IMG/VR virus record: IMGVR_UViG_3300029288_007064
Length of the DNA: 15,868 nt
Source of the DNA: a virus
Lineage: Duplodnaviria > Heunggongvirae > Uroviricota > Caudoviricetes
Reading direction: 5' to 3' (one strand)
A model generated the notes under the pieces. That model did not search any database, had not been told where the DNA came from, and saw only the letters and a list, made by a program, of their open reading frames with translations. Shown here piece after piece: positions 7,005-15,868 of the stretch (within the stretch, counting starts at the first letter, position 1; every line of letters begins with the position of its first letter). The translations under genes were made by a program, and so were the position numbers.

Positions 7005-8081
7005 TTATTTCTTTATTATCGCATAATACATTAACACTCCTATTGCTAGTACAAGTATTCCAATAACAACATATATAGCTATATCATTGTTAGATGTAGG
7101 AGTAGTGGTGGTTTCGGAAGGTTCAGAAGGTATAGTAGGTATCGTTTCCTCGTCCCCACCACTACTCGCAACTATACATTGTCCATCTAATTTTTCATAT
7201 CCGTTATTACATTCATATGCACAAGACGTTGTACTCCAATAAGAGTTTGATGGCTGTGTTCCGGATGCGGTGCATTCTGAAGGTGTAGGTGTTATCGGTG
7301 TAGTTGGACAATCTGCTTCACATGCTCCGTTCTTTTCGGATGTTTTGCATATTCCATCACCACAACCCAATGGACAAGATGTTCCTGATATCCATTGTCC
7401 ATCTACCGAGCACTTCTTATAATTTACTGTAGAACCATCCCAGCATTCTTTTGTTTGGAATGTTCCAGGAGTGCAATCCCAAACAACATCGTCGGTATTC
7501 TTTATATAGAATTGAAATGTCCAAGACCTTTCGTGGTCTGCAACATATTCGTTGTATGCCTCTTCTGTTACACATTCTATATCACTTGTTGCGCATTCTG
7601 CTGTGGTTGCGTCATAATACGCTTTTATATAGTTCATATCTAAATATGTTATTGAAGTAAGATGAGCGACGATTGTAGTTTTTCCGTTGTTAAAATAACA
7701 CAATTCATCAACATTTTCTTTTACTGTACATGGAGCAGAACCGGAATCCCCATTCTTGCTGGTATATGTAAAAGGTATAGTTTCTGAACCATCGTCTACA
7801 TTTAATACTACAGGACCATTTTTCTTTATTGTAAATCCATCAATAGCATAAGAAGGATGCAGTTGCTCTCCATTTTCTGTTCCAGAACACCATTTTGATA
7901 CGTCTAGAGATGCGGTGCTTAACGAAGTCCATTTATACGTTCCTGCTACCCAATAACCCGATGGCGAGGAGTAATATGAACCTAAAATTGTCTGTCCAAA
8001 ATCTGTAATGATAGCCATAGATAAAACAACTACAAATGCAATAATAATGTAATGTGTTTGATTTAACTTTATTTTATTCAT
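7005..8081 (-). CDS. Cys-rich membrane-anchored surface protein
   Basis: 358 aa; N-terminal hydrophobic segment, CWDGS and CGDGICxxxExxxxCxxDC motifs, Pro/Thr linkers, CAYECNNGY module, C-terminal TM plus KK; GGTGA RBS; ATGA overlap with the upstream gene. Confidence 0.85.
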   Translation of the reverse strand: MNKIKLNQTHYIIIAFVVVLSMAIITDFGQTILGSYYSSPSGYWVAGTYKWTSLSTASLDVSKWCSGTENGEQLHPSYAIDGFTIKKNGPVVLNVDDGSETIPFTYTSKNGDSGSAPCTVKENVDELCYFNNGKTTIVAHLTSITYLDMNYIKAYYDATTAECATSDIECVTEEAYNEYVADHERSWTFQFYIKNTDDVVWDCTPGTFQTKECWDGSTVNYKKCSVDGQWISGTSCPLGCGDGICKTSEKNGACEADCPTTPITPTPSECTASGTQPSNSYWSTTSCAYECNNGYEKLDGQCIVASSGGDEETIPTIPSEPSETTTTPTSNNDIAIYVVIGILVLAIGVLMYYAIIKK

Positions 8082-10117
8082 TTTATCACCGTCATAATAT
8101 TTTTCCTAAATATAAATACTATTGCAATAATTACTATTCCTACACCAACAATTATTAGTAGAGTATTCATCGAAAGCAATCCTTCTTGCGGACCAACGTT
8201 TGAAGGTGTTTCTCCTACTCCACTTGTTTGCGTTTCTTCTTCTGTCGAGGAAGGAGTTGTAATACTATCTGCAACTATTTGCGATACTGAAGGTGTAGAA
8301 CTTATGAATTCATAGTCTTCTGTTATTTCTTGTGAATTTCCAAAAGAATCTATCAAATAACCATACTCCGCAACGTATTTACAATATGGTGAAGAAAGCC
8401 ATATTTGGTGTGTTTTGTTTTCTGGAATAAATAGCATGTTATCTGCAATATAGTTCTTTATTCCAGTTTGCTTATTTAGTTCTTTGCAATGTTTTTCTCC
8501 AGCATCGTTTCTTGGATCTACTTCACTTTCTATATAACTATTTCCTGAAGTTCCGTCTTCTCTTTGATAATTCGAAGTTGAATACTCTTCTAAATCAATA
8601 ATTTCACAATCCGATTCAAATATATTGTGTAATGCCGTGTTTTCATCTGATTCTAATGTAGAATCTTTATATTGGTTTGGACAAATCCATTCGCAACCAT
8701 ATTGCGTATATACTGCTACGTGCTGCGCGCTTGGCTTATTTTTATCGCAGAACGGAAGTATTTTTATTCTAACTTCTTTTGTGTCTTTTTGGTCTGGGTC
8801 TGTAACAGAAGATACTTGAACGGTATAGGTTTTAATAATTCCGGTTCCTTGGAAAAACACATCTACAGATTGCGTTTCACCGGAAGCAAGCGTTACTCTC
8901 TTGCTTACTGTTGCGATATCTGAACCACCAAGTAGAGCAATATCAACCGCACCACTTACATTTGCATTATTCTTCACTATTACGGTTATTTTGTTATTTG
9001 CAGATGGTGTGTAATCAGAAGCAACTGTTACATTAACTATTTCAGGTATAGCAACAGGTACGGTTATTCCAAGTGTTCCTTGCGATAATATTATTGTAGT
9101 TTCTGGAATAACTGCTTGCGTTTTTGGTACGCATCTTATTTTAGTTGAAAATCCATCCGACGTTGCATTATCGCAATTATAAAATTCTGCTGCGTGCGTT
9201 GTTGGTATTTGTGCTAGAGCAGATTGGCAGGATTGAACTCCAGATACCGAATTTACGTTTGTACACATTGAAACTACTTGATTTAATATGTATTTATCTT
9301 TTATCTGATAGTTCATTGTATTATATGGTCTCCAAACAGAATAATCTGCTGCCGGAACTGGACAAGTTCTTTGTCCGGTAAGGTATCCTGTAAGTTTAAC
9401 ATACATCACTCCTTCTAATTGCTTTTCTAGTTCTTCTGATGTAACTTCAAGAGATTTTTCTACGCTACCTATTTTTAGAGTTGTATTAATCTTAGTAAAG
9501 AATGTAGTAGAAGAATCTATCAAATGAACTGTTCCTGCTATTGCTGATTTATATGCTGGACATTCACATGTTGCAGATGAATCACAAGCGTTACCAGAGC
9601 TTCCCCAAGAGCTACTTGTAATTGTTCCAGCTAATATTGTATAACCTGTTTTAGCACTACAACCACAAGAAGAGCCTACTGCTGGAGGAGATACTCCGCA
9701 AGAAACTGTTTTTGTCGAAGAAACAACTGTCCAATTCTGTATTATATAAGTAATGTTTGTCACTTGATATTCACATGCTTGCTCAGTTATTCCTTGTTCT
9801 ATTGTAAATGGTTCTGCAACAAGCAATCCGAATTTTTGATATATTAATTCAGGAGTAAATGTTCCTTCTGCATATTGCCCTGAACCATCCACTCTTGTAA
9901 CCATAGTCCAAGAACCATTATTAAATATTGGATTAGTAGATTGATAACTCATTTGGTCAAGTGAAACAACTGTAAATCCAGTTAATGAACCAAGAGGAGT
10001 TGAGATATTAAGATTTGGTGCAAGAACAAGATATGCAATAAGCGATATACATAAAACTAGTCCTACAAGTAAGTAAGGGTTCTTCATTATTTTGTGGAGA
10101 GTTATTGCACCACTCAT
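8078..10117 (-). CDS. Type I membrane glycoprotein, putative class II fusion/fusexin-like protein (paralog B)
   Basis: 679 aa; N-terminal signal/anchor, ~310-aa beta-rich region with a Cys-rich loop, Ig-like domain (GITVPVAIPEIVNV ... ITVIVKNNANVSGAVDI ... VTLASGETQSVDV), Cys module, Ser/Thr/Glu linker, single C-terminal TM plus RK. The CDS is certain; the fusexin call is pattern-based inference. Confidence 0.55.
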   Translation of the reverse strand: MSGAITLHKIMKNPYLLVGLVLCISLIAYLVLAPNLNISTPLGSLTGFTVVSLDQMSYQSTNPIFNNGSWTMVTRVDGSGQYAEGTFTPELIYQKFGLLVAEPFTIEQGITEQACEYQVTNITYIIQNWTVVSSTKTVSCGVSPPAVGSSCGCSAKTGYTILAGTITSSSWGSSGNACDSSATCECPAYKSAIAGTVHLIDSSTTFFTKINTTLKIGSVEKSLEVTSEELEKQLEGVMYVKLTGYLTGQRTCPVPAADYSVWRPYNTMNYQIKDKYILNQVVSMCTNVNSVSGVQSCQSALAQIPTTHAAEFYNCDNATSDGFSTKIRCVPKTQAVIPETTIILSQGTLGITVPVAIPEIVNVTVASDYTPSANNKITVIVKNNANVSGAVDIALLGGSDIATVSKRVTLASGETQSVDVFFQGTGIIKTYTVQVSSVTDPDQKDTKEVRIKILPFCDKNKPSAQHVAVYTQYGCEWICPNQYKDSTLESDENTALHNIFESDCEIIDLEEYSTSNYQREDGTSGNSYIESEVDPRNDAGEKHCKELNKQTGIKNYIADNMLFIPENKTHQIWLSSPYCKYVAEYGYLIDSFGNSQEITEDYEFISSTPSVSQIVADSITTPSSTEEETQTSGVGETPSNVGPQEGLLSMNTLLIIVGVGIVIIAIVFIFRKNIMTVIK

Positions 10118-10389
10118 TATATCACCATTTCAAAAATCCAATATGTTATTCCACAACCTACCAGAGAAACAACTCCACTTATCATATCATTTTTAATATA
10201 ATTTATGCTTGTTAAATAAATTATTACAAAGATAGGAAAGTTCAAAAGAAATGCTAGTGTAAGTAAGTTTGACAATGTTGTATATGGAATATTCAAGAGT
10301 ATAAGCAAAATAGCAAGTATCGGTGCTCCTACTAGGCATATGGTGAAGAACCCAAGTGCTAATTTTTCATACTCTTGCTTCCATTTCAT
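10117..10389 (-). CDS. Small 3-TM membrane protein between the two glycoprotein paralogs
   Basis: 90 aa with three hydrophobic segments; TAATG stop/start overlap with the 679-aa gene. Confidence 0.75.
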   Translation of the reverse strand: MKWKQEYEKLALGFFTICLVGAPILAILLILLNIPYTTLSNLLTLAFLLNFPIFVIIYLTSINYIKNDMISGVVSLVGCGITYWIFEMVI

Positions 10390-10393
10390 TACA

Positions 10394-12487
10394 TCACTTT
10401 TTTACCTTTACCTTACCCTTACCCTTAAAGAACACCAAATATGCTCCCAAGCCAACAACTACGATTACCATAAAACCTACAGCAATCCATAGTAAATTGC
10501 TTAGTAAATCTTGTATTGCACATCCAGCTTCATCTATTGGCTTAGTAATTGCTCTAGTTGGACCACACAATAAATCAAGTGAGCCACATGGTGTTGCATA
10601 TTTTGCTATTATTCCAGCTTTACAAGATGTATCTTCCTCTTCTGTGTCTTTTACACAAACACTTTGTTGTAAAGTATTATTAAATGATTCGTGATATCCA
10701 CCATTGCAATTCCATGCACAATCTGGTTGCTTACCTGTTCCTGTGTATACAGAATATTGAGGTTTAGTTGTGCAATCTTTTCCTTGTTCATAAGGAACGC
10801 AAGTACATGTTTTGGACGTGTCTGGATAATAATTTGCTTGACAATTTGTTAAATCACATTTCCAAGTGCATCCTTCTCCTTGTCCGTACCAAGTCCATTC
10901 TCCTGCTGTTGGAGGGGTAGTTTGTTTGCACAATTCAACTACCTCTGTATTAAATGTACAAGTTCCCGTAGTTGCACCAATACCATTTACTGCTTTAGCT
11001 GAGCACGTACTTTTTCCTGGTTCTGTGCTTAATATATTAAAAGTAAAAGGTGTTATTCCACCATTTCCGTTTACAGTAAGAGTTTTAGAAGTTGTTCCTG
11101 AAGGAGTAACTAAATCACAGTTAATAAATGAAACCGTAACTGCACCAGTATCTCCGGTATTTGTAGCAGTTATCGTAACAGAATCTACATCGTTTTCTAT
11201 TGAATTAAGCGTAGTTGTAGGGCATTTTAAACTAGCTATTGCCACCGGAGTATATATTCCTACATTCTTCGCGTTTAAATCAATAGTAAGCACCGGAATA
11301 GCACCGCTTACATCTCTATCAAAGTATAATACCCCACTAGATACTCTTGATTGCTCTGAAGAGCTAAGAAGTTGTTGTACGGGTTCTAATGTTTTACATT
11401 TTTGCATTGTAGTTCTATAATCTACTATTTCAGTTTGAATATCAGTTAATGTTTTACTTGTTCCATAAGCAAGAGAAGGTTTCGTTTTCCCTGTATATGC
11501 AATCCAAGCATTTGTATTTATAAATCTATTCTTGCCTAATGTGCTATCATAAAAGAAATTTAAATCAGAACCTGGAAGAGCAAATGAAGAAGCATAATTA
11601 ACAAATCCTCCTAGAAGTGATGCTTTTCTTATAATTGTTCCTCCTACGGTTGTTTCGCCATTTTCATCAATAGTAACTTTATTTGCTTGTACTATTTTAT
11701 CGCTAGTAGAATCTATTGTAAAGGAATCCTTAGCAAGACCATTAATATATGCCGTTCCCGTAATTTTTGTAAAATAATAACCATCCTTTCCTGTGAATAT
11801 TGTATCCCTTGATTTTTCATAAACTTTCGCACAAATCCATGTATTAGAATTAGCTTTATATTCTATCATTGTTCCTCCATTAGCATAACAAACGGAATTA
11901 TAATAAGGTTTGCAATCACCGAGTGCTCCATTCAAACTCGCAGGAACACCACCTGAATATGTATGAGCACCACCCAATAAATATGTTCCACACGTTCCTC
12001 CCCAATTAGCTGAATTTAAAGTTACATCTTTATAAGTGATATCATAATCTACTAAATCATAACTAGAACCTGCTACTGCATAAGTATATTTATATCCGTT
12101 TCCATCTAACTTTACTCCTAGAGCAAATTTTTCTTTTGGTTTCGTACTAGTTCCTTCTACATTAACAGTTTTTGCTGTAAAATCGTCTTCATCGGTATAA
12201 ACAGTATCTCCGATTGCCCAATCATCTTGTCCGTTCAATAAAACTTCAACTCTTGCTATATCAACACTATCATCAGCTTCTGCAGAAGTAAAATATTTTA
12301 TTGTAGAAATATCTAAAATTTCAGCACTATTAGAATGTGTATATGGAAGAGTTGTTCCGCCGGTTAAATTTGGAATGGTTATTACATTAGTGAATAGAAG
12401 TGCTGATAAAATGACTATTAAACCAATTCCTAAAAGTAGACTTTCTTTCCCTTTGACTTGTGCTAGTATGTTTGTCATCGCAACCAC
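10394..12487 (-). CDS. Type I membrane glycoprotein, putative class II fusion/fusexin-like protein (paralog A)
   Basis: 697 aa (start may be the ATG at 12478, 5 nt after GGTGG); N-terminal signal/anchor, ~370-aa beta-rich region with loop NWGGTCGTYLLGG, Ig-like domain (LTIDLNAKNVGIYTPVAI ... TITATNTGDTGAVTVSFINC ... STCSAKAVNG ... TCTFNT), Cys modules, C-terminal TM plus KGKGKVKVKK. The CDS is certain; the fusexin call is inference. Confidence 0.6.
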   Translation of the reverse strand: MVAMTNILAQVKGKESLLLGIGLIVILSALLFTNVITIPNLTGGTTLPYTHSNSAEILDISTIKYFTSAEADDSVDIARVEVLLNGQDDWAIGDTVYTDEDDFTAKTVNVEGTSTKPKEKFALGVKLDGNGYKYTYAVAGSSYDLVDYDITYKDVTLNSANWGGTCGTYLLGGAHTYSGGVPASLNGALGDCKPYYNSVCYANGGTMIEYKANSNTWICAKVYEKSRDTIFTGKDGYYFTKITGTAYINGLAKDSFTIDSTSDKIVQANKVTIDENGETTVGGTIIRKASLLGGFVNYASSFALPGSDLNFFYDSTLGKNRFINTNAWIAYTGKTKPSLAYGTSKTLTDIQTEIVDYRTTMQKCKTLEPVQQLLSSSEQSRVSSGVLYFDRDVSGAIPVLTIDLNAKNVGIYTPVAIASLKCPTTTLNSIENDVDSVTITATNTGDTGAVTVSFINCDLVTPSGTTSKTLTVNGNGGITPFTFNILSTEPGKSTCSAKAVNGIGATTGTCTFNTEVVELCKQTTPPTAGEWTWYGQGEGCTWKCDLTNCQANYYPDTSKTCTCVPYEQGKDCTTKPQYSVYTGTGKQPDCAWNCNGGYHESFNNTLQQSVCVKDTEEEDTSCKAGIIAKYATPCGSLDLLCGPTRAITKPIDEAGCAIQDLLSNLLWIAVGFMVIVVVGLGAYLVFFKGKGKVKVKK

Positions 12488-12504
12488 CTTGCTCCTATTT
12501 TATT

Positions 12505-12528
12505 AAAAATAAAAAAAGAAAAAAAGAA
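12505..12528 (-). terminator. Archaeal oligo-U terminator after the 318-aa gene
   Basis: Minus strand reads TTCTTTTTTTCTTTTTTTATTTTT about 12 nt after the TAA at 12540. Confidence 0.7.
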
Positions 12529-12539
12529 TTTGGGGTTAA

Positions 12540-13496
12540 TTACCAAATTCCTATAACGAAGTCGTAGTTGGTTGCACTAACATCCGCAAGGGTATCCGTG
12601 TTCTGATAATCATTGAACACTACACCATTGGATTGCTTTACAAACGTTCCATAATCAATAATTCTTACTGTTACGGTATCGTTCGGGTCTACACCAGCTA
12701 CCGGAGTACAACGCACACCAAGAGTTGCTGCATCATAATGAGTAATGCTATCAATTCCGGTGTCCCAGCACTCTTCGTATCCACTTGCAACGCCTGCGAG
12801 GCTTTGTGTAAGTTTAACTGCACCCGCATTTGTAACTTCGCACCTTGAAAAGTTCAAAGTATCGTAGTTAAAGCACGCTGTGGGGTGTCTATACACTCCT
12901 CTTGCAGTTGCGCCTTCAAGTCTAACTTGGAGTGTTCTTGCTTCATCAGTAGTGAGAAGCTGCCCCATTGAAGTTGCTGCCCAAGATCCACTCGTGGTGT
13001 TCTGACCAGTAACAGTCAAGGTATTAAGTCTGTCTGCATACATCGTCATCTTATAATTTGCGATAGACGGAACAGCCATAACATCAGACTTCACCGTGTA
13101 GTGTGTCGCGTTCTGACCAACGAGGAAGAGTTCTTGTCCAACGTTTGCTGTAGTTGCTCCTTGAATAAACCCTGCCGGAGTAGCAATTATCGTATCAAAC
13201 GGAGTAGTCGAATCCTTGTCGTATACACCTACACTCATACCAATCCTATTTTTAAGACCAGTTGAGTCGGGAATCGTTTCCCTCACTTCCACAAGCAGAT
13301 TAACTCCATTAGACGCATCAAAGAAAGTTTGCGTTGCCGGAATCTCCGTTGTTACTTGCCCCGCCGCAACCTGACCAGGTTGGAGAGCTCCACTTGTAGG
13401 AGTAATTCCGACACCCATAATCATAGCGACAACAACTAAAGCCACTATTCCTAAGAGTCCGAAAAACCCATACATCATCGTTTTTTGGCTTACCAT
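12540..13496 (-). CDS. N-terminally anchored beta-rich protein with high-expression features; candidate major virion/envelope or surface lattice protein
   Basis: 318 aa; single N-terminal TM; strongest RBS in the window (GAGGTGA); visibly more GC-rich with C-ending codons (e.g. AAC TAC GAC TTC near the end); own upstream TATA-like box and downstream U-tract; several sequons. Confidence 0.7.
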   Translation of the reverse strand: MVSQKTMMYGFFGLLGIVALVVVAMIMGVGITPTSGALQPGQVAAGQVTTEIPATQTFFDASNGVNLLVEVRETIPDSTGLKNRIGMSVGVYDKDSTTPFDTIIATPAGFIQGATTANVGQELFLVGQNATHYTVKSDVMAVPSIANYKMTMYADRLNTLTVTGQNTTSGSWAATSMGQLLTTDEARTLQVRLEGATARGVYRHPTACFNYDTLNFSRCEVTNAGAVKLTQSLAGVASGYEECWDTGIDSITHYDAATLGVRCTPVAGVDPNDTVTVRIIDYGTFVKQSNGVVFNDYQNTDTLADVSATNYDFVIGIW

Positions 13497-14048: not shown

Positions 14049-15509
14049 TCATTCATCTACGTCGGAGTATTCGTCTTCTTCAAGCATTTTAGTTCGTGCT
14101 TCAGACGGTGCGCCTTGTTGAACGTTTTCTTGCATAATAGCGCTACGTGGGAAGATAGGGAAGAATTTTTTAAGACCTTCTTCGCTATCTGGTTGAATAA
14201 GCACGAATTGTTTAACTGGCTCTATATCTTTCCATCTTAATTTTTTGCATTCTTCTTCTATTACCCATTTAGGTACTCCTCTATCACGTAATAACTTCTC
14301 TTGTTCTTCATTCATTATTTTGCAAGTTACTACATACTTACTTTGCTTTAGTATTACTCTATCGAGGAGATTTGGTTCTTGTGTAATAAATATGCCTGTC
14401 ATTCCGAACTGACCATATCTAGTAAGCATTTGTCTAAAAGCAAATCTACCAGGACTTCTTACAAAATTATTTACTATCGTGTCTGCCTCATCCATCACTG
14501 TAACAATAGGTCTATCCAATAACCCTTTAATATATCTTGTTCGCAAATCAGGTTTAAGAAATGCGACTCTACTTTGAATAACCTTTTCAGCAGCAATTTT
14601 AATATATGTTTGAAGTGTGGATTCATCTTCGACATCAATTGCCGTTTCCAAGAAGACTATTTTGTTATTCGCTAGTTTTTCTTCGAAATCAAAAGAATCT
14701 CTTTTTCCACCGAGTTCTCCACCGTCTACTCTATCTCTAAATTTATATAGCAAATCTCTAGAAACGCTTTGCTTTTTTCTTTCTTTCTCTTGGTCTTTTA
14801 TATCTTCAATAACTTTATTAAGCATATCAAGAGTATCTTTTGGCTTTTTGTTTAATACTCTTCTTAAAGCCATTCCAGCGGGTGACATCTGTCCTACGTT
14901 AAGAAATCTACACCACAATTTAATTCTAGACGGTAGTCCTAAAACATTAAAATCAGTCGGATTAATTCTATAAACATAAAATCCGTTTCCGGTTTTTATT
15001 CCGGTTCCCCTAGCTAAAAATTCAGGTACTGCATAACAAGCGTTTGGATAACCAGTTGGCTTTATTCCAAACTTCTTAAATTGTGTAATCGCTCTTGGGT
15101 CTTCTTGTTTTTCCGCAACATTAGTCATTTCGTTCTTTGGGTCTATGCCAAAATAATAATAACCTCTATCACCATGTATTTGGTCTAATGCAAAAGTCTT
15201 AACCCATTGTGTTTTACCTGCTCTTCTGAGCATACACACAACCATACCAAAAGATTTACCATCTGACCAATCAAGTGTTACGGGTTCATAGCTTTCAAAA
15301 TCTTCAACACCAAGAAGTAGATGTCCTTTTGGTATGCTTATTTCTTTCATATCTTCTGGAATAAATACTTCACCGTATTTTCCTCTCAAGGATGGTTTCT
15401 TAGAGTATTTAGCAAAATCAGCTAATAATATTTTATCGAAACCTTCTTTGTCTTTGTCTTCTTCTCTTTTAAATATAAAATATGAAGATGCAGATATAGT
15501 ATTCACCAA
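14049..15509 (-). CDS. HerA/FtsK/VirB4-superfamily P-loop ATPase (putative DNA packaging or translocation motor)
   Basis: 486 aa; Walker A-like MLRRAGKT (15233-15210), IDPKNEM motif typical of HerA/VirB4/VirD4, Walker B VMDEAD (14498-14481), then FG-x4-FITQEP and ILKQ; acidic C-tail; no TM. Confidence 0.85.
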   Translation of the reverse strand: MVNTISASSYFIFKREEDKDKEGFDKILLADFAKYSKKPSLRGKYGEVFIPEDMKEISIPKGHLLLGVEDFESYEPVTLDWSDGKSFGMVVCMLRRAGKTQWVKTFALDQIHGDRGYYYFGIDPKNEMTNVAEKQEDPRAITQFKKFGIKPTGYPNACYAVPEFLARGTGIKTGNGFYVYRINPTDFNVLGLPSRIKLWCRFLNVGQMSPAGMALRRVLNKKPKDTLDMLNKVIEDIKDQEKERKKQSVSRDLLYKFRDRVDGGELGGKRDSFDFEEKLANNKIVFLETAIDVEDESTLQTYIKIAAEKVIQSRVAFLKPDLRTRYIKGLLDRPIVTVMDEADTIVNNFVRSPGRFAFRQMLTRYGQFGMTGIFITQEPNLLDRVILKQSKYVVTCKIMNEEQEKLLRDRGVPKWVIEEECKKLRWKDIEPVKQFVLIQPDSEEGLKKFFPIFPRSAIMQENVQQGAPSEARTKMLEEDEYSDVDE

Positions 15510-15868
15510 CTTGTTCCTTTTGTTTCTTTCTTAGATTGAGCGAATATGTTACTAAAAGGATTACCAAACCTAAGTGCTTGGAATAATACTTTATCGCCTT
15601 GCTCTGCCACTTGCCAACTAATATCAGAAACTCTTCCACTAGCCATTTCCCAAAATTCATTCGGTGCTTTATTGCCTAAAAACATTTTCTCTGTTCTATT
15701 AGAGACCTTGTAAATAAAAATGTTAAATTTCTTTTTGTTCATTATCCAGCGTTCATCCTTCTTTGTCCACTTTATGAATTTCTTCTTGTTTATTTTTTCT
15801 ACTAACTGCTCAGAAGGTTCTGGTTCAAGAGCATCAAGGTTCTTCGGAAACGGTGTCCACTTCTTCAT
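15503..15868 (-). CDS. Hypothetical soluble basic protein, coupled to the ATPase gene
   Basis: 121 aa, Lys/Trp-rich, overlaps the ATPase start by 7 nt; begins exactly at the window edge, so the true start may lie upstream. Confidence 0.7.
   Translation of the reverse strand: MKKWTPFPKNLDALEPEPSEQLVEKINKKKFIKWTKKDERWIMNKKKFNIFIYKVSNRTEKMFLGNKAPNEFWEMASGRVSDISWQVAEQGDKVLFQALRFGNPFSNIFAQSKKETKGTSW

What the first reader, a model, noticed from the sequence alone, without database searches (positions are those of the whole stretch)
8078..12487. Two tandem paralogous fusogen-like proteins: possible heteromeric or two-sided fusion machine
Seen: the 697- and 679-aa proteins are colinear: ILDISTIKYFTS vs VVSLDQMSYQST, EVLLNGQDDWAIG vs VTRVDGSGQYAEG, IPVLTIDLNAKNVGIYTPVAI vs IPETTIILSQGTLGITVPVAI, TITATNTGDTGAVTV vs TVIVKNNANVSGAVDI. 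They differ most in the putative tip: A has a hydrophobic WGGTCGTYLLGG loop, B has a more polar Ser/Gly/Cys loop (CGVSPPAVGSSCGC...SSWGSSGNAC, 9700-9557). Inference: duplication with division of labour, for example A as the fusogen and B as a shielding/priming companion or heterotypic partner. Characterised fusexins act as homotrimers from a single gene.
Basis: partly seen in the sequence, partly recalled or inferred. Interest (0 to 1): 0.85.

Follow-up and report, generated by a model that had tools for sequence, protein, structure and literature searches.

The report
Two unlike surface proteins sharing one anchor module
Two neighbouring genes on an archaeal virus-like DNA element encode membrane-anchored surface proteins that share only a short membrane-proximal module, so they are not whole-length duplicates, and no test here showed either to be a membrane-fusion protein.

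Summary
Both genes are real: A (window 10394-12487) and B (8078-10117), on the minus strand. Each has an N-terminal hydrophobic segment, a large ectodomain, a C-terminal membrane helix and a short basic tail.

Their similarity is confined to about 150 residues (A397-545, B337-480): an Ig-like beta-sandwich plus a CxWxC motif just outside the membrane. There it beats chance (shuffle z 7.3; hhalign E 6e-4). The roughly 300-350-residue N-terminal halves show none (hhalign E 0.64; z 1.2). The same cassette occurs alone in a 212-aa archaeal chromosomal protein, and its Cys part occurs in the next gene.

One other lineage keeps the six-gene order: small protein, HerA/FtsK-type ATPase, 318-aa protein, A, B, 358-aa protein. 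There B is 48% identical end to end. A is alignable only in its C-terminal half (23%), and its "fusion loop" is not conserved.

No sequence or profile search links A or B to Fsx1 or HAP2; the only viral class II hit was a non-significant one for B (E 0.15). Both structure models failed (pLDDT 34-38), so the fusexin fold is untested.

Most likely reading: A is a fast-evolving host-recognition protein and B a conserved core partner in a virion or transfer surface module.

The parts
10394..12487 (-). Gene A: a 697-aa ORF, or 694 aa from the ATG at 12478. It has an N-terminal hydrophobic segment, an ectodomain, a C-terminal TM helix and a short basic tail.
11300..12367 (-). A head (residues 41-396). 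It is fast-evolving, with no significant similarity to B or to its own positional orthologue P0012. Only a C-x7-C spacing and an ICAKV core are retained. It contains the WGGTCGTYLLGG loop at 12004-11969.
10853..11299 (-). A cassette (residues 397-545): an Ig-like beta-sandwich plus a CxWxC motif. This is the only region similar to B. It is also 31% identical to the stand-alone 212-aa protein P0010.
10117..10389 (-). A 90-aa three-TM mini-gene between A and B. It is absent from the related element, where A and B overlap directly.
8078..10117 (-). Gene B: 679 aa, with the same overall membrane topology as A. It is 46-48% identical over its full length to P0009 in the related element.
9110..9997 (-). 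B N-terminal ectodomain (residues 41-336). It is conserved, with peaks at residues 61-105 and 196-270, and has no detectable relatives outside this lineage. The Ser/Gly/Cys loop (residues 140-178, window 9700-9584) is its most variable stretch.
8678..9109 (-). B cassette (residues 337-480): an Ig-like domain plus the LPFCDK...YTQYGCEW.CPNQY motif. This motif is the most conserved window of B, at 77% identity.
7005..8081 (-). P0004: a 358-aa Cys-rich type I membrane protein whose start overlaps the end of B by 4 nt. It carries the same Cys module, and its head is variable (29% identity, C-terminal half only).
12540..13496 (-). P0005: a 318-aa N-anchored beta-rich protein, 48% conserved, followed by a T-tract. 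It is a candidate major structural protein of the module.
14049..15509 (-). HerA/FtsK-superfamily ATPase at the head of the conserved six-gene module.
15503..15868 (-). A 121-aa protein, the first conserved gene of the module (48% identical to the 125-aa gene in L008).

Best explanation
A and B are two different membrane-anchored surface proteins of the particle-forming or transfer module of an archaeal virus-like element. They are not whole-gene duplicates. What they share is a membrane-proximal cassette (an Ig-like sandwich, a CxWxC knot, a stalk, a TM helix and a basic tail) that is shuffled among the surface-protein genes of this lineage. The gene at position A carries a head that has diverged almost beyond recognition between the two known lineages. 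By inference, it is the host-recognition or attachment component. B is conserved at the same level as the ATPase and the putative major structural protein. By inference, it performs the invariant step, either as the base of the spike or as the entry effector, possibly in membrane fusion. Shown here: gene structure, membrane topology, the extent of similarity, synteny and the rate contrast. Inferred: location on a virion, physical association of A with B, and any fusion activity.
For: 1. A-B similarity is confined to A397-545 and B337-480. The N-terminal halves are unrelated by every test.
2. The cassette is modular. P0010, a 212-aa protein, consists of only signal, cassette and TM, and matches A at E 5e-6 against 1.8 billion representatives. 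The Cys module also occurs in P0004. In the related element the A-homologue shares its Cys module (41-57% identity, E 8e-7) and its N-terminal leader (44% identity) with the P0004 homologue.
3. The five-sequence cassette profile hits an Ig-like bacterial surface-adhesin domain, 6v3p_C, at E 6.8e-5. Sub-threshold Pfam hits are to the NEW3/Cep192_D3 Ig folds.
4. The six-gene order is conserved in L008/L004. Identities are 48% (small protein), 48% (ATPase), 48% (P0005), 23% (A, C-terminal half only), 48% (B) and 29% (P0004, C-terminal half only).
5. The genes are tightly packed, with 1- and 4-nt overlaps at P0003/B and B/P0004, which fits co-expression.
6. The ATPase resembles viral FtsK/HerA-type packaging ATPases: phrog_2666 at E 1e-7, Pox_A32, Zot and HerA below threshold, and HerA 4d2i at E 0.002. 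The related element carries a tyrosine integrase.
Against: No particle, capsid fold or experimental localisation is available. P0005 has no recognisable fold. Only two lineages exist, so the rate contrast and the pairing rest on n = 2, and the second lineage is a single population. The long N-terminal hydrophobic segments may be uncleaved anchors, which would be unusual for classical spikes. The cassette similarity between A and B is weak (hhalign probability 29%), and Ig-like domains are common in archaeal surface proteins, so convergence is not excluded.
Confidence: 0.55

Rival explanations
1. A and B are whole-length tandem paralogues with a class II (fusexin) fold that form a heteromeric or two-sided fusion machine, with A as the fusogen and B as its shield or partner.
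For: The overall architecture is compatible: a beta-rich region of about 300-350 aa, then an Ig-like domain, a stalk and a TM helix. Foldseek on the only semi-modelled part of A, the Ig-like domain at pLDDT about 50-58, lists Fsx1 7p4l and HAP2 domain III among many beta-sandwiches, at E about 1e-3. The B profile gives a sub-significant hit to yellow-fever E domain III, E 0.15. The pair is conserved in the related element.
Against: The N-terminal halves, which would be domains I and II, show no A-B similarity. Neither protein hits Fsx1, HAP2 or PF10699. The flavivirus hit disappears with the broader cassette profile, which instead finds an adhesin Ig-like domain. Complement MG domains outrank the fusexin domain III hits. 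A's hydrophobic loop is not conserved in its orthologue. B's loop is variable and carries an indel.
Confidence: 0.1
2. A and B are not virion proteins. They are displayed on the carrier cell as adhesins or coat proteins that hold it to a partner or host cell, for conjugation-like or vesicle-mediated transfer of the element.
For: The cassette resembles CARDB/NEW3-type and adhesin Ig-like domains that are typical of archaeal and bacterial cell-surface proteins. P0010 is encoded on an archaeal chromosome of about 0.9-1.4 Mb. Downstream lie small multi-TM proteins, a NosD-type beta-helix surface protein and a CPBP protease. HerA/VirB4-like ATPases also drive archaeal DNA-transfer systems and accompany Fsx1 in integrated elements (PMC9259645).
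Against: The best ATPase matches are viral packaging-type families. No pilin, VirB6/CedA-like or coupling-protein signature was detected in the window. Earlier notes describe a virus-type replisome on this element, which was not re-tested here.
Confidence: 0.2
3. The A-B resemblance is not homology. Two unrelated surface proteins each happen to carry a common Ig-like fold and a small Cys motif.
For: The hhalign probability is only 29%. P0012 against P0009 is not significant (z 2.05). Ig-like sandwiches are ubiquitous.
Against: The same order of elements (IP..I....GI..PVA, the N.G..SG.V sandwich strand, C.K..P, GC.W.C) sits at the same distance from the TM helix in all five sequences. The cassette z is 7.3 for A-B and 5.3 for P0012-B.
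Confidence: 0.1

Closest known systems
Archaeal Fusexin1 (Fsx1, PDB 7P4L) and HAP2/GCS1; Moi et al. 2022, PMC9259645
   Same: Membrane-anchored ectodomain proteins carried on archaeal mobile elements next to HerA/VirB4-type ATPases and integrases. An Ig-like domain precedes the stalk, and B has an extra conserved region after it, loosely like Fsx1 domain IV.
   Different: There is no sequence or profile similarity. Fsx1 is encoded by a single gene, forms homotrimers and has three C-terminal TM helices and a conserved fusion loop. Here there are two unlike genes, each with one C-terminal TM helix, and no conserved hydrophobic loop. The fold is untested.
Two-protein class II entry complexes of enveloped viruses (alphavirus E2-E1, bunyavirus Gn-Gc, flavivirus prM-E); general knowledge
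   Same: A variable attachment or companion glycoprotein is encoded directly upstream of a conserved type I glycoprotein. This is an analogy of layout only.
   Different: Those pairs are made as one polyprotein and have solved class II folds. Here the genes are separate, and there is no fold evidence and no evidence of binding.
Pleolipovirus spike/fusion proteins (HRPV VP4/VP5; PMC8875312, PMC10791045)
   Same: They are type I membrane spikes of archaeal membrane-bearing viruses, encoded in a small module with membrane proteins and an NTPase. Relatives include integrase-bearing proviruses.
   Different: There was no hit in PHROGs, in PDB sequences or in 50,697 phage and archaeal-virus records. 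Pleolipoviruses use one spike gene, not an A, B and P0004 trio.
CARDB/NEW3-type Ig-domain surface proteins of archaea (COG1361-like) and the Ig-like domain of the streptococcal IgA-Fc receptor (PDB 6V3P)
   Same: The cassette shared by A and B is this kind of beta-sandwich.
   Different: Only the cassette matches. All Pfam hits fall below the gathering threshold. The N-terminal ectodomains have no known relatives.

Membership tests
Fusexin / class II fusion proteins (Fsx1, HAP2, EFF-1, viral E, E1, Gc) | Detectable sequence or profile similarity to a family member | tested here: not met
   Pfam, including PF10699, gave no hit at E up to 1-5. PDB hmmsearch at E up to 10 found no 7P4L or HAP2. 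The only class II hit was yellow-fever E domain III at E 0.15 for B, and the five-sequence cassette profile lost it.
Fusexin / class II fusion proteins (Fsx1, HAP2, EFF-1, viral E, E1, Gc) | Three-domain beta-rich ectodomain: domain I sandwich, elongated domain II inserted in domain I, and Ig-like domain III before the stem and TM helix | tested here: inconclusive
   The AlphaFold2 models had mean pLDDT of 37.6 (A) and 34.2 (B). Foldseek on B found nothing below E 0.01. On A it matched only the Ig-like domain, against complement MG domains and HAP2/Fsx1 domain III alike.
Fusexin / class II fusion proteins (Fsx1, HAP2, EFF-1, viral E, E1, Gc) | A conserved hydrophobic fusion loop at the tip of domain II | tested here: not met
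   A's WGGTCGTYLLGG aligns with NNAGCKACLAAG in P0012. B residues 136-180 are the least conserved part of its N-terminal half (37-40% identity, 9-residue indel). This test assumes those loops are the tips.
Fusexin / class II fusion proteins (Fsx1, HAP2, EFF-1, viral E, E1, Gc) | Trimerisation and membrane-fusion activity | not testable with these tools
   This needs expression and fusion assays.
Tandem whole-gene paralogues | Colinear similarity over most of both proteins | tested here: not met
   Similarity covers only about 150 of about 690 residues. The N-terminal halves give hhalign E 0.64 and z of 1.2 or lower.
Tandem whole-gene paralogues | The pair is retained together in related loci | tested here: met
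   L004, L008 and L012 carry the A-homologue directly followed by the B-homologue. This is one additional lineage only.
CARDB/NEW3-like Ig-domain surface proteins | An Ig-like beta-sandwich recognised by family models | tested here: inconclusive
   Pfam NPCBM_assoc scored E 0.12 and Cep192_D3 E 0.011-0.098, all below gathering scores. PDB 6v3p_C, an Ig-like domain, scored E 6.8e-5 with the cassette profile.
Pleolipovirus spike (VP4/VP5) | Sequence similarity to known spikes | tested here: not met
   No hit in PHROGs, PDB sequences or phage records.

The most novel reading that the evidence does not exclude
B is a previously unseen, highly diverged class II (fusexin-type) or otherwise new membrane fusogen, and A is its rapidly evolving receptor-binding companion. 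Together they would be the first two-component, Gn/Gc-like entry machine in an archaeal virus, sitting on a module shared by a 94-kb element and a small integrase-bearing element.
Probability: 0.1. Interest if true: 0.85.

Novelty: new member of a known kind. Interest (0 to 1): 0.33.

Why it matters
If B or the A+B pair proved to be a fusogen, it would extend fusexin-type or two-component entry machinery to viruses of small-genome archaea and bear on the origin of class II fusion proteins. As the evidence stands, the value is more modest. The analysis defines a rare six-gene surface and packaging module shared by two very different archaeal mobile elements. It shows one conserved and two hypervariable membrane proteins in that module. 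It also documents shuffling of a small anchor cassette among them. That makes a useful annotation and a defined target for structure prediction and expression, but not a demonstrated new mechanism.

Tried and rejected
**Homologue searches**
- The word-indexed search of 5.8 billion proteins found only the record's own copy of A, and one homologue of B (P0009).
- A full phmmer search of A against 1.8 billion representatives gave only P0010, plus a low-complexity hit, P0011, which I judged spurious.
- IMG/VR (8 scans), GTDB genomes (2 scans) and INPHARED phage records (3 tblastn searches) gave nothing.

**Structure**
- AlphaFold2 on shallow alignments failed for both proteins.
- The ESM Atlas's own models were also poor, at pLDDT 0.44-0.45. 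I set aside as noise the structure row for a HAP2 cluster (TM 0.22/0.38) and the feature hits below 0.8.
- Foldseek on the B model gave only meaningless rows.

**Complex prediction**
- One job was run, A41-520 against B41-455. It returned no verdict (score 0.00), so it is not used as evidence either way.

**Other checks**
- I considered the flavivirus E domain III hit (E 0.15) as a lead and rejected it after the broader cassette profile lost it.
- I looked for microdiversity in A against B across the near-identical contigs L008, L009, L010 and L012. There are almost no differences, so this is uninformative.
- No whole genome is held for this window.
Full report
**What is there**

The window is one long co-directional minus-strand gene array. 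In order it holds:
- a 121-aa gene (15503-15868);
- a 486-aa ATPase (14049-15509);
- a 552-bp gap;
- P0005, 318 aa (12540-13496);
- A, 697 aa (10394-12487);
- a 90-aa three-TM gene (10117-10389);
- B, 679 aa (8078-10117);
- P0004, 358 aa (7005-8081);
- four small multi-TM genes;
- a 1,320-aa NosD-type beta-helix protein;
- a CPBP protease.

A and B each have an N-terminal hydrophobic segment, a large Cys-containing ectodomain (23 and 19 Cys), one C-terminal TM helix and a short basic tail. A's database start is the ATG at 12478. It is preceded by a T-tract and a GGAG/GGTGG ribosome-binding site. The P0003/B and B/P0004 junctions overlap by 1 and 4 nt.

**Is A similar to B?**

Only locally.
- BLASTP finds one block, A395-544 against B335-479, at 24% identity and E 0.005.
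- The local score exceeds all 300 shuffles, with z 4.6-5.2 for whole proteins and 7.3 for the block alone.
- With family profiles (A + P0012 + P0010 against B + P0009), hhalign again reports only A397-545 against B337-480, at E 6e-4 and probability 29%.
- The N-terminal halves alone give E 0.64 and probability 0.1%.
- All four cross-family shuffle tests of the N-terminal halves give z of 1.2 or lower.

**What the shared block is**

The block aligns coherently across five sequences. The order is an IP..I....GI..PVA lead-in, a CARDB-style "V.V.N.G..SG.V" strand, then C.K..P and GC.W.C.
- Its profile hits an Ig-like domain of a streptococcal surface protein, 6v3p_C, at E 6.8e-5.
- Sub-threshold Pfam hits are to the NEW3 and Cep192_D3 Ig folds.
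- The only part of A's model with pLDDT above 50 is this sandwich. Foldseek matches it to complement MG domains, and to Fsx1 and HAP2 domain III. That makes it a generic beta-sandwich.

The block is modular. P0010, at 212 aa, is just signal, block and TM. It matches A at E 5e-6 against 1.8 billion proteins. It lies in a low-GC island of an archaeal chromosome of about 0.9-1.4 Mb. The Cys part recurs in P0004. In the related element the A-homologue shares this Cys part, and also its N-terminal leader, with the P0004 homologue.

**Related loci**

B has one full-length homologue, P0009, at 46% identity. Metagenome contigs L002-L004, and then L008-L012, come from one near-clonal population. Together they show a second element that carries a tyrosine integrase, many small ORFs and the same six genes in the same order.

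Identities to the window:

| Gene | Identity to window |
|---|---|
| Small protein | 48% |
| ATPase | 48% |
| P0005 | 48% |
| A | 23%, C-terminal half only |
| B | 48% |
| P0004 | 29%, C-terminal half only |

The N-terminal 355 residues of A and of its positional orthologue P0012 are not significantly similar (z 1.8). Only a C-x7-C spacing and an ICAKV pentapeptide at matching positions hint at common descent (13 of 500 shuffles). The 90-aa gene between A and B is absent from the second element. So the pair is conserved, but in one additional lineage only. A is the fast-evolving member and B the conserved one.

**Fusexin test**

- Pfam, PHROGs, NCBIfam and PDB sequence searches give no link to Fsx1, HAP2 or PF10699.
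- The B profile gave a cluster of yellow-fever E domain III hits at E 0.15-3.8, placed at the N-terminal edge of B's Ig-like domain. These are one homologous target set and are not significant. They vanish with the five-sequence cassette profile.
- AlphaFold2 on the shallow alignments failed, with mean pLDDT of 37.6 and 34.2. The defining three-domain topology therefore remains untested.
- The proposed fusion loop of A is not conserved. The proposed polar loop of B is B's most variable N-terminal stretch.

**Context**

The ATPase belongs to the HerA/FtsK superfamily. It matches HerA 4d2i at E 0.002-0.003, the NCBIfam HerA model at E 0.001, and phrog_2666 (annotated as a terminase) at E 1e-7 for the L008 copy. 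Pox_A32, Zot and DUF87 fall below threshold. Earlier notes of this scan describe the host record as a closed element of about 94 kb, probably of DPANN archaea and virus-like, with its own replisome. I did not re-test this. The same six-gene module also sits in a much smaller integrase-bearing element. That fits a portable morphogenesis or entry module.

**Interpretation**

The best-supported reading is that A and B are two unlike surface proteins that share a shuffled anchor cassette. A, and likewise P0004, carries a rapidly diverging head suited to host recognition. B is a conserved core component. Whether B fuses membranes, and whether A binds B, is inference only.

It has lost its sequence arguments, though, and I put it at about 0.1.

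Noticed in passing
L008:1-16325 (ENA ERZ27247121 k141_340518, 17.3 kb); also L009, L010, L012: A second, much smaller element carries a tyrosine integrase (L008:1498-2154), about 18 small ORFs with no family hits, and the same six-gene module as the window. The contig ends 196 bp after the P0004 homologue, so the size and ends of this element are unknown.
   Followed up: partly
L005:4500-11000 (JGI Ga0209514_10000001, 1.37-Mb contig): P0010, the stand-alone cassette protein, lies in a roughly 6-kb island of unannotated small ORFs. The island has 31% GC against 36% in the flanks. It sits between a DDE transposase and the SRP54/ribosomal-protein genes of a small-genome archaeon. It may be a remnant of a related element and a clue to the host.
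   Followed up: partly
L004:1548-3752 and L003:795-1778: In the related element the A-homologue and the P0004 homologue share a 44%-identical N-terminal leader/TM segment and a 57%-identical Cys motif. This suggests recombination among surface-protein genes within one genome.
   Followed up: partly
window 12488-12539: A T-rich tract (TTCTTTTTTTCTTTTTTTATTTTT) follows the P0005 stop codon, and an A/T box and a GGAG..GGTGG site come before A. This could give partial termination and higher expression of P0005 than of A and B.
   Followed up: no
window 10117-10389: A 90-aa three-TM gene is inserted between A and B in this element only. Its function is unknown.
   Followed up: partly
window 8318-8414 (B residues 573-604): An aromatic-rich membrane-proximal stretch of B (WL.SP.C.YVAEYGY..D.FGN.QEI.EDYEF) is among its best-conserved parts (67% identity), about 40 residues before the TM helix.
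   Followed up: no
window 8753-9997 (B residues 41-455): In the complex job, ESMFold2 reported pLDDT 72 for this part of B, whereas AlphaFold2 with a two-sequence alignment gave 34. The B ectodomain is probably modellable with other predictors.
   Followed up: no
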